From Malacoraja senta (lineage: Eukaryota), in the NCBI GenBank assembly GCA_038087875.1, contig CM075987.1, positions 27,096,001 through 27,160,000 of the forward strand: 64,000 nt of DNA, in the 5' to 3' direction. The position numbers were made by a program, and so were the translations under genes. The notes beneath the pieces are model-generated. The model saw nothing but the letters and a program-made list of their open reading frames with translations, did no database searches and was not told the origin of the DNA. Positions 52,351-52,742 of the stretch are shown here, one piece after another; position 1 is the stretch's first letter; each line of letters begins with the position of its first letter.

Positions 52351-52742
52351 GTAGACACAAAATGCTGGAGTAACTCAGCGGGTGAGGCCGCATCTAAGGA
52401 GAGAAGGAATAGGTGACGTTTCGGGTCGAGACCCTTCTTCAGACTGATGTCGGGATGGGGGGGGGGGGCGGGAGGGAAAAAGTGGGCGGAGACAGTAGGA
52501 CTTGAAGGAGAACTGGGAAGGGGGAGGGGAAGGAGGGAGAAAGCAAGGGCTATCTGAAATTAGAGAATGCAATATTCATACAAGTCAATGTAAACTACCC
52601 AAGCGAAATATGAGGTGTTGTTCCTCCAATTTGCGCTGGGTCTCACTCTGACAATGGAGGAGGCCCAGGACAGAAAGGTCAGATTGGGAATGGGAAGGGG
52701 AGTTGAAGTGCTGGGCCACTGGGAGATCAGGTGGGTTACGAC
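52351..52742 (-). mobile_element. Penelope-like element 3' end: GIY-YIG endonuclease C-terminus plus terminal repeat
   Basis: Minus frame RNPPDLPVAQHFNSPSHSQSDLSVLGLLHCQSETQRKLEEQHLIFRLGSL (not in the ORF track), followed in the same sense by a CT-rich UTR and the abundant terminal repeat. Confidence 0.8.
52415..52442 (-). ncRNA. Putative minimal type-I hammerhead ribozyme core
   Basis: CUGAAGA-A-GGGU CUCG ACCC-GAAA-CG-UC: intact catalytic core, stem II, palindromic ACGU helix III and GUC cleavage triplet; helix I only ~2 bp. Confidence 0.6.

What the first reader, a model, noticed from the sequence alone, without database searches (positions are those of the whole stretch)
52351..52742. One of the window's most abundant short repeats is a Penelope terminal repeat carrying a minimal hammerhead ribozyme core
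Seen: dozens of ~100-250 bp copies of one repeat. At 52351-52742 (-) it lies directly 3' of a GIY-YIG-type ORF end (PVAQHFN..RKLEEQHLIFRLGSL), and at 2190-2537 it follows GGMNIDF. It contains CUGAAGA-A-[GGGU CUCG ACCC]-GAAA-CG-UC: intact at 52415-52442 (-), with single changes at 42650, 43155, 54501-54528 (-) and 2441. A second subfamily (40299-40326 -, ~47303 -) has GGGU UUCG GCCC, which keeps stem II (U-A to U-G) and an NUH triplet. The short helix I is also kept (U pairs with A or G; G-C). Established: Penelope-like elements carry minimal type-I hammerheads whose palindromic helix III is thought to act as a dimer. Inference: this lineage has a massively amplified ribozyme-bearing, retrozyme-like non-autonomous family.
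Basis: partly seen in the sequence, partly recalled or inferred. Interest (0 to 1): 0.72.

Follow-up and report, generated by a model that had tools for sequence, protein, structure and literature searches.

The report
Penelope tail mini-copies carrying minimal hammerheads
This very abundant short repeat is the tail end of a Penelope-like jumping gene and carries a hammerhead-ribozyme motif of a kind described in 2014; nearly all copies are mutated, likely inert 100-135 base insertions that start just before the motif, probably at the element's transcription start, rather than the tandem ribozyme repeats called retrozymes.

Summary
Observation confirmed. There are 55 copies at 42 loci (about 9% of the window). 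Two follow the end of a Neptune-type Penelope (PLE) endonuclease ORF; the best protein match (90%) is from little skate. The motif fits the published minimal hammerhead (min-HHR) consensus of PLE terminal repeats, so the kind is known, and this scan has noted it in other genomes.

The retrozyme reading is not supported. No head-to-tail arrays occur (30 solo loci, 12 head-to-head). Only 2 of 55 copies keep every ribozyme requirement. G12 is mutated in 13 of 38 copies, there is no covariation signal, and the predicted fold hides the core.

New detail: the copies are discrete units. 26 of 55 begin within 9 bases at an initiator-like motif at the ribozyme's 5' edge, not at its cut site. They end at two points about 37 bases apart (the PLE 'tail'), and 7 loci have 11-15 bp target duplications. 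Contigs from four public runs show the same boundaries. The likely origin is run-off cDNA from internal priming on uncleaved RNA.

In passing: a single-copy CPEB3-like HDV ribozyme lies at 17233-17299. That family is reported only from mammals, so it deserves its own follow-up.

The parts
52349..52742 (-). 5'-truncated Neptune-type Penelope-like element: ORF end plus 3' pseudo-LTR, ending at the first (tail-less) 3' end
52550..52740 (-). C-terminal end of the PLE GIY-YIG endonuclease region, interrupted by a stop and a frameshift near its end
   Evidence: 90% identity over 98% of the 51-aa query to a Leucoraja erinacea protein, E 2.4e-20; homologs carry the Cys-rich linker and a sub-threshold GIY-YIG hit
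52448..52549 (-). pyrimidine-rich upstream part of the pLTR (subfamily-specific; absent from most copies)
52441..52447 (-). initiator-like motif (YYANWYY match, A at 52445), the place where most short copies begin
   Evidence: motif match; 5'-end cluster; promoter function inferred, not tested
52413..52444 (-). minimal type-I hammerhead: 2-bp helix I (52444-52443 with 52414-52413), core from 52442, 4-bp stem II 52434-52423, palindromic helix III half 52419-52416, predicted cut between 52415 and 52414
   Evidence: fits the consensus in Fig. S3 of PMC4209133
52349..52412 (-). conserved body of the repeat between the ribozyme and the first 3' end; likely holds the RT recognition and priming region
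   Evidence: conservation; role inferred from PMC11167929
54421..54570 (-). second copy that keeps all hammerhead requirements (U.G in helix III), with upstream pLTR
2189..2536 (+). second ORF-linked copy (different upstream subfamily); G12 mutated
43118..43286 (+). copy with upstream pLTR and the ~37-base tail (about 43250-43286); reference for the read laying
40232..40327 (-). solo mini-copy of the second subfamily, flanked by a 15-bp target duplication with one mismatch
47235..47328 (-). solo mini-copy of the second subfamily starting at G5, 14-bp target duplication
18955..19045 (+). solo mini-copy with a 13-bp target duplication (one mismatch)
63528..63616 (+). solo mini-copy with a 13-bp target duplication (one mismatch)
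60604..60799 (.). head-to-head inverted pair, tail on one arm, whole unit flanked by a 15-bp target duplication
43423..43631 (.). head-to-head inverted pair joined between stem II and G5; the pair at 42411-42561 has the same junction in another subfamily

Best explanation
The repeat is the 3' terminal part (pseudo-LTR end plus optional ~37-base tail) of a Neptune-type Penelope-like retrotransposon of a cartilaginous fish, likely a skate, with a standard minimal hammerhead motif; most copies are discrete ~100- or ~135-base insertions, likely made when the element's reverse transcriptase primes internally, a short way into an uncleaved RNA, and runs off its 5' end, probably an initiator-defined transcription start at the ribozyme's 5' edge. 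SHOWN: linkage to the ORF end, the motif, two preferred 3' ends, one dominant 5' boundary, target duplications, head-to-head pairs, and decay of the core. FROM THE LITERATURE: two internal RT start sites make the PLE tail, and unprocessed RNA is the main insertion substrate in vitro (PMC11167929); PLEs have internal TATA-less promoters (PMC2377424). INFERRED: that the 5' boundary is the transcription start; that inverted pairs form when two cDNAs join at short palindromes; that the ribozyme matters, if at all, only in source elements, as a dimer or with protein help. The genomic copies are likely inert relics.
For: ORF end is 90% identical to a little-skate protein; homologs from sharks and rays have the Cys-rich linker, sub-threshold GIY-YIG and RT hits, and PF26215. 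The motif fits the published min-HHR consensus, and a 2-bp helix I has precedent in Culex, Drosophila and Oikopleura rows. 5' ends: 24 of 55 fall in profile positions 86-94, against a maximum of 15 in 5,000 uniform simulations; 27 after reassigning three copies with internal deletions; 26 once the finding's own longer copy is removed. 3' ends: 23 of 55 at 179-190 and 17 of 55 at 210-230. Target duplications scoring 10 or more at 8 of 42 loci (one lies in a simple repeat, so 7), against 1 of 600 mismatched flank pairs. Four public runs (163,054, 149,013, 13,744 and 3,787 contigs laid) show depth rising 75-, 112-, 83- and 30-fold from upstream pLTR to ribozyme. In all four, 43154 is a listed 5' loose-end site with mixed flanks (agreement 0.33-0.36) whose majority letters still end in the two bases expected from the initiator A. 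An initiator match lies at that place.
Against: No transcription start was measured; contigs cannot show RNA ends. Initiator-type matches are common (6 in the 232-base profile). The depth step overstates truncation because upstream pLTR differs between subfamilies, and a private change in the reference at 43153 pools ends from positions 86-90. 5' ends spread over 9 bases, with a second mode at G5, and 6 more sit in stem II, so structure or microhomology also shape junctions. No full-length element or host genome was available, so the Neptune label rests on the linker motif of homologous proteins, not on an RT tree. Pfam GIY-YIG hits are below the curated cut-off.
Confidence: 0.65

Rival explanations
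1. The mini-unit is a self-propagating, SINE-like non-autonomous partner of the PLE: it keeps an internal promoter and the RT start sites, is transcribed from its own copies and is re-inserted in trans. This is compatible with the best explanation and differs only in which locus supplies the RNA.
For: Discrete ends and target duplications. Several subfamilies with linked diagnostic changes; one group of 7 copies includes none with upstream pLTR. Long pLTR-bearing copies are rare. Contigs from two guessed-RNA runs hold the unit.
Against: 7 of 55 copies carry upstream pLTR or ORF, and most share diagnostic bases with short copies. None-of-7 is too small a sample to show a short-only lineage. RNA status of the runs is a guess, and intronic read-through would explain them.
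Confidence: 0.25
2. Ordinary 5' truncation of long PLE cDNAs, with a hot spot set by RNA structure or microhomology and no transcription start involved.
For: PLE insertions are typically heavily 5'-truncated, with inverted partners joined at palindromes (10.1101/2021.04.23.441226; PMC3846280). The predicted competing hairpin closes at about the same position. Junctions also recur in stem II (6 of 55).
Against: Solo copies with target duplications start at the same place without an inverted partner. A stalled RT would be expected to stop at the 3' side of a hairpin, not past it (inference). Very few copies extend further 5'.
Confidence: 0.2
3. A non-LTR retrozyme: tandem HHR repeats that self-cleave into monomers, circularise and re-insert.
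For: Some head-to-tail joints exist in public runs: tail end to 5' boundary in 58 and 79 contigs of the two larger runs, and one such joint at depth 2,775 in run X19 (counts incomplete). A 2026 preprint reports retrozymes in its one chondrichthyan genome.
Against: No head-to-tail array in the window (0 of 42 loci). Unit ends do not coincide with the cut site, as ends of cleaved monomers might. Only 2 of 55 copies are intact. Those joints are under 0.1% of the 163,054 and 149,013 contigs laid.
Confidence: 0.06
4. Ribozyme cleavage defines the 5' end of the inserted RNA, so short copies are fossils of in vivo self-cleavage.
For: Three copies begin within one base of the predicted cut (16588, 32003, 33511).
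Against: 3 of the 18 ends between positions 95 and 145 is not significant (p = 0.086). The cut site is not among the six top loose-end places listed per run (1,055 rows not shown). Most copies keep the uncleaved motif.
Confidence: 0.04
5. The boundary is a 3' splice site, as in Drosophila virilis Penelope, where an intron ends at helix I; short copies come from spliced RNA.
For: A pyrimidine tract and a YAG lie directly before U2.1. The D. virilis intron end maps to helix I (PMC4209133).
Against: No shared upstream exon among copies. Loose-end agreement is only 0.33-0.36. Target duplications lie within a few bases of the boundary.
Confidence: 0.05

Closest known systems
Minimal hammerheads (min-HHRs) in the pLTRs of metazoan Penelope-like elements (Cervera and De la Pena 2014, PMC4209133)
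   Same: Core boxes, extra base between 9 and 10.1, G10.1-C11.1 pair, palindromic 15.2-16.2 with no loop 3, pyrimidine-rich 5' flank, position just 3' of the endonuclease ORF, mostly solo copies, some in opposite-strand pairs.
   Different: No cartilaginous fish among the Fig. S3 rows. Helix I is only 2 bp and stem II 4 bp. Density here is about 0.9 copies per kb, against about 4,000 and 9,000 motifs per genome for coelacanth and Xenopus. That paper treats solos as truncated PLEs and, in the parts I read, gives no fixed 5' boundary.
PAc, the Poseidon PLE of Anolis carolinensis (Frangieh et al. 2024, PMC11167929)
   Same: Two preferred 3' ends 30-40 bases apart (tail), the outer one AC-rich, shortly downstream of the HHR; the uncleaved motif is retained in insertions.
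   Different: The element here is Neptune-type by the linker of its homologs. PAc's ORF starts in stem II, whereas no start codon lies in this HHR. No biochemical data exist for this element.
Non-LTR retrozymes of animals (PMC7229834; preprint 10.64898/2026.07.22.740005)
   Same: Small, non-coding, PLE-related, type-I HHR, high copy number.
   Different: Retrozymes are head-to-tail tandem arrays, with canonical HHRs in the 2020 paper, and give circular RNA. Here copies are solo or head-to-head, the HHR is minimal, and 53 of 55 copies are incomplete or mutated.
Inverted/palindromic pLTR junctions and tails of PLEs (PMC3846280; 10.1101/2021.04.23.441226)
   Same: Head-to-head inverted copies joined at palindromes, tail on one arm, target duplication around the whole unit.
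   Different: Here the whole insertion is often only the two short arms, with no ORF.

Membership tests
EN+ Penelope-like element (Neptune type) | C-terminal GIY-YIG endonuclease | tested here: met
   Window peptide matches the C-terminus of proteins with GIY-YIG hits at E 0.0008-0.004, below the Pfam cut-off; the window peptide alone had no Pfam hit
EN+ Penelope-like element (Neptune type) | Cys-rich Zn-finger linker between RT and EN (Neptune/Nematis) | tested here: inconclusive
   Present in homologs P0003, P0007, P0010, P0019, P0027; the window fragment is truncated downstream of it
EN+ Penelope-like element (Neptune type) | Telomerase-like RT in the same ORF; clade by RT phylogeny | not testable with these tools
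   No full-length copy in the window and no host genome; homologs P0029 and P0044 carry RT hits
EN+ Penelope-like element (Neptune type) | Optional 30-40 bp tail, inverted 5'-truncated partner, target duplication | tested here: met
   Two 3' end clusters about 37 bases apart, 12 head-to-head loci, 7 target duplications
min-HHR of PLEs | Conserved core boxes and NUH cut triplet | tested here: met
   Complete at 52447 and 54570; 2 of the 21 copies spanning the motif, 2 of 55 in all
min-HHR of PLEs | Extra base between 9 and 10.1; G10.1-C11.1; palindromic 15.2-16.2 | tested here: met
min-HHR of PLEs | Helix I of 4-5 bp (typical) or 2 bp (variants) | tested here: met
   2 bp, as in the Culex, Drosophila and Oikopleura rows of Fig. 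S3
min-HHR of PLEs | Covariation in the stems across families | tested here: not met
   268 of 500 shuffles reach the observed score on 26 copies; only one-sided G.U changes recur. Copies are closely related (median 10% from the profile), so power is low
min-HHR of PLEs | Self-cleavage as a dimer or with protein | not testable with these tools
   Folding predicts a competing hairpin: stem II probability 0.01 or less in 7 of 7 constructs; hammerhead-like dimer -6.1 against -21.5 kcal/mol for the best dimer
Non-LTR retrozyme | Head-to-tail tandem units, each with an HHR | tested here: not met
   0 of 42 loci and no such array from Tandem Repeats Finder; rare joints elsewhere
Non-LTR retrozyme | Canonical type-I HHR with 6-bp helix I and loop-loop contact | tested here: not met
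   2-bp helix I, minimal type; no Rfam hammerhead hit at E <= 1
Non-LTR retrozyme | Expression as abundant circular RNA | not testable with these tools
   Only contigs were available, and no holder is on record as RNA

The most novel reading that the evidence does not exclude
Skates carry a Penelope-dependent SINE-like unit of 100-135 bases, running from an initiator at the hammerhead's 5' edge to the RT start sites, amplified to perhaps a million copies. Its ends are a genomic record that PLE reverse transcriptase primes internally on uncleaved, promoter-initiated RNA in vivo, which would explain the solo minimal hammerheads scattered through animal genomes without any self-cleavage.
Probability: 0.3. 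Interest if true: 0.6.

Novelty: new member of a known kind. Interest (0 to 1): 0.33.

Why it matters
As a ribozyme find it is ordinary: PLE minimal hammerheads and their mass dispersal in vertebrates were published in 2014, and a 2026 preprint includes one cartilaginous fish. What is useful is the anatomy. The function of the hammerhead in endonuclease-bearing PLEs is still unclear, and one in vitro study found cleavage unnecessary for insertion. A family this dense, with sharp ends and target duplications, allows a direct genome-wide test of whether inserted RNAs start at the promoter or at the cut site. The window data favour the promoter side. Separately, the CPEB3-like HDV ribozyme at 17233-17299 would matter more if it proves orthologous: a 2021 paper states that this ribozyme had not been found outside mammals.

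Tried and rejected
No host genome is held, so nothing was counted genome-wide in this species. An exact-pattern scan and a protein-guided scan of metagenome contigs returned no loci. Rfam gave no hammerhead match at E <= 1; its miRNA hits are the inverted pairs folding back. Pfam had no hit on the 51-aa window peptide. Run search: no RNA holder listed, which is no evidence on expression. One search was translated in the wrong frame and one search had helix I one column off; both were discarded (one search is the corrected count). Core-versus-flank conservation: non-CpG core mismatches 9 of 265 against 186 of 2,456 in the body without diagnostic columns (p = 0.011; 287 of 2,733 with them). I did not count this as selection on copies, because alignment edges and the A-rich core bias it, and G12, a CpG site, is mutated in 13 of 38. 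An apparent cluster at the cut site (5 of 21, p = 0.006) fell to 3 of 18 (p = 0.086) once internal deletions were recognised. RNAalifold on 26 copies chose a competing pairing, not the hammerhead; folding z-scores of six short stretches lay between -1.15 and +1.57. A longer helix I was looked for by eye and by folding and not found. No host exon was recognised in the window. Look-ups of earlier findings by sequence and place were empty. Literature search was badly specified and gave nothing relevant.

Full report
1. Observation. The motif is present exactly as described at 52415-52442 (-). A relaxed pattern finds 18 matches against 6.45 expected, with 0 of 100 shuffles reaching 18. A strict descriptor finds 2 against a mean of 0.017 in 60 simulated windows. 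A profile built from 17 window copies finds 57 hits covering 8.9% of the non-N bases. I kept 55 after realignment and dropped 2 weak ones. Median divergence from the profile is 10% (47 copies). The named single-change copies and the second subfamily check out, though both members named for the second subfamily are defective: 40326 in helix III, and 47328 lacks C3 and U4.

2. Parent element. The reading frame at 52588-52740 (-) matches a Leucoraja erinacea protein at 90% (E 2.4e-20) and 29 further proteins among 80 candidates. Longer homologs carry a Cys-rich linker followed by a GIY-YIG-type region. Pfam GIY-YIG hits appear in 3 of 6 homologs tested, all below the curated cut-off. Relatives from whale shark, zebra shark and rays carry PF26215, and one from a brittle star also has an RT domain. 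That linker marks the Neptune and Nematis clades (10.1101/2021.04.23.441226, passages). The host is therefore likely a skate and the parent a Neptune-type PLE. No full-length copy could be retrieved.

3. The ribozyme motif. It fits the consensus of Cervera and De la Pena 2014 (PMC4209133: main text parts 1-2 of 4; supplement parts 1-2 of 3). It has the core boxes, an extra base before stem II, G10.1-C11.1, and a palindromic helix III half with no loop. Helix I is 2 bp, as in their Culex, Drosophila and Oikopleura rows; no cartilaginous fish is in that figure. They found no cleavage by a monomer and weak cleavage by dimers. Here 21 of 55 copies span the motif and 2 keep every requirement. G12 lies in a CpG and is mutated in 13 of 38 copies; in the two larger public runs the G-to-A share at that place is about 15%. 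Non-CpG core positions are somewhat better kept than the body (3.4% against 7.6%, p = 0.011), but edge and composition bias weaken this. Stem II is paired in 88% of cells, while covariation does not exceed shuffles (268 of 500). Folding predicts that the purine-rich core pairs with the pyrimidine run just downstream: stem II probability is 0.01 or less in 7 of 7 constructs, and a hammerhead-like dimer scores -6.1 against -21.5 kcal/mol for the best dimer. Stem II enters the best fold only in a 36-base stretch. These models ignore tertiary contacts and proteins. In Anolis PAc the HHR cleaved only when protein was added (PMC11167929, parts 1-2 of 4).

4. Architecture of the copies. The 55 copies form 42 loci: 30 solo, 12 head-to-head, none a head-to-tail array (Tandem Repeats Finder agrees). 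3' ends cluster at profile 179-190 (23 of 55) and 210-230 (17 of 55), about 37 bases apart. This is the PLE tail, which in PAc corresponds to two internal RT start sites. Target duplications of 11-15 bp flank 7 loci; an eighth hit lies in a simple repeat, and the null gave 1 of 600. One surrounds a whole inverted pair (60604-60799). So short units were inserted as such. Inverted junctions recur at short palindromes, as described for other PLEs (PMC3846280 passages).

5. The 5' boundary. 24 of 55 5' ends fall at profile 86-94, against at most 15 in 5,000 uniform simulations. Three copies with internal deletions raise this to 27; the finding's own copy, which continues upstream in another subfamily type, lowers it to 26. 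Only 3 of the 18 ends between 95 and 145 are at the cut site (p = 0.086). Laying contigs of four coded public runs on 43060-43340 gave 163,054, 149,013, 13,744 and 3,787 contigs. Depth rises 75-, 112-, 83- and 30-fold between 43130-43139 and 43160-43169. In all four runs 43154 (U2.1) is a listed 5' loose-end site, with unrelated flanks and majority letters ending in the two bases that precede it in the element. The cut site is not among the six places listed per run. Caveats: upstream pLTR differs by subfamily, the reference has a private change at 43153, counts were incomplete, and depth is no copy number. Summed depth over the depth of single listed contigs suggests the order of a million copies, as does the window density if it is typical; this is a rough inference only. 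The boundary coincides with an initiator match (the YYANWYY consensus is recalled, and 6 such matches occur in the profile). Penelope of D. virilis has an internal TATA-less promoter (PMC2377424 passages).

6. Mechanism. I commit to this: RNA starts at the initiator beside the ribozyme; the PLE protein primes reverse transcription about 100 or 135 bases downstream on the uncleaved RNA; the cDNA runs off and is integrated with a target duplication; two such cDNAs joined at a palindrome give the head-to-head form. Ends, duplications and decay are shown. Internal priming and use of uncleaved RNA come from PAc in vitro. The transcription start is inferred. I put element identity at about 0.9 and the run-off step at about 0.55-0.6. 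Whether the RNA comes from full elements or from mini-copies themselves is open.

7. Comparison and novelty. It works like, and is a member of, the PLE min-HHR family. It is not a retrozyme by the tandem and canonical-HHR criteria (PMC7229834 passages; 10.64898/2026.07.22.740005 parts 1-3 of 5, supplements not seen). Rare head-to-tail joints in other genomes (58 and 79 contigs, one at depth 2,775) leave room for a small tandem subfamily. Searches (listings and abstract starts) showed no paper describing this skate family or a fixed 5' boundary for solo min-HHRs, and a shark and ray genome preprint does not mention Penelope. The library lacks most subscription papers and repeat databases such as Repbase, so the family may already be catalogued. 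This scan has noted the same kind in other genomes; those notes came after my reading was formed and were not checked.

8. In passing. Rfam finds a CPEB3 ribozyme match at 17221-17298 (+), 37 bits against a gathering score of 35, E 3.1e-06. From 17233, all 19 pairs of P1 (6, opening with G.U), P2 (8), P3 (3) and P1.1 (2) form, a C sits at the catalytic position, and P4 is weak; it is single-copy in the window. P1 differs from the Rfam consensus on both strands. [quoted passage not shown] No CPEB exon was recognised in the window, so orthology is untested.

9. Verdict. Real, correctly identified as a PLE minimal hammerhead, known in kind; retrozyme label not met; a testable detail in the unit boundaries. 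Interest 0.33.

Noticed in passing
window 17233-17299 (+): Single-copy HDV-like ribozyme candidate matching Rfam's mammalian CPEB3 ribozyme above the gathering score (37 vs 35 bits, E 3.1e-06). All 19 pairs of P1, P2, P3 and P1.1 form, P1 is changed on both strands, P4 is weak. A 2021 paper says the family was not found outside mammals. Host gene not identified. Possibly more interesting than the assigned finding.
   Followed up: partly
window 42411-42561, 43423-43631, 60928-61138: Inverted pairs from at least two subfamilies share nearly the same junction (one arm starting in stem II; in the first two the other arm starts at G5), suggesting a template-switch hot spot. Such pairs form long hairpins that score as plant miRNA families in Rfam and could yield double-stranded RNA.
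   Followed up: partly
window 17986 (-), 35426 (+), 51480 (-): Three arms of inverted pairs have 10-18 base deletions inside the hammerhead at short microhomologies.
   Followed up: partly
laid on window 43154-43273, run X19: One head-to-tail joint of the unit at depth 2,775 with seven extra letters; may be a small tandem, retrozyme-like subfamily in that organism.
   Followed up: no
proteins P0002, P0003, P0006: The PLE endonuclease end is fused into several skate gene models, including one named neuromedin-U receptor 1; likely annotation artefacts or exonisation.
   Followed up: no
window 44313-46181 (+): 622-codon open frame resembling the RT and C-terminal part of an L1-type LINE, in an AT-rich stretch (family assignment by eye).
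   Followed up: no
window 35803-36624 (-), 4747-5142 (-), 38215-39027 (+): Open frames of other LINE fragments; the PLE copy at 52742 also abuts a LINE fragment.
   Followed up: no
window 32310-33037: About 730-base AC-rich degenerate tandem array next to a copy of the repeat.
   Followed up: no
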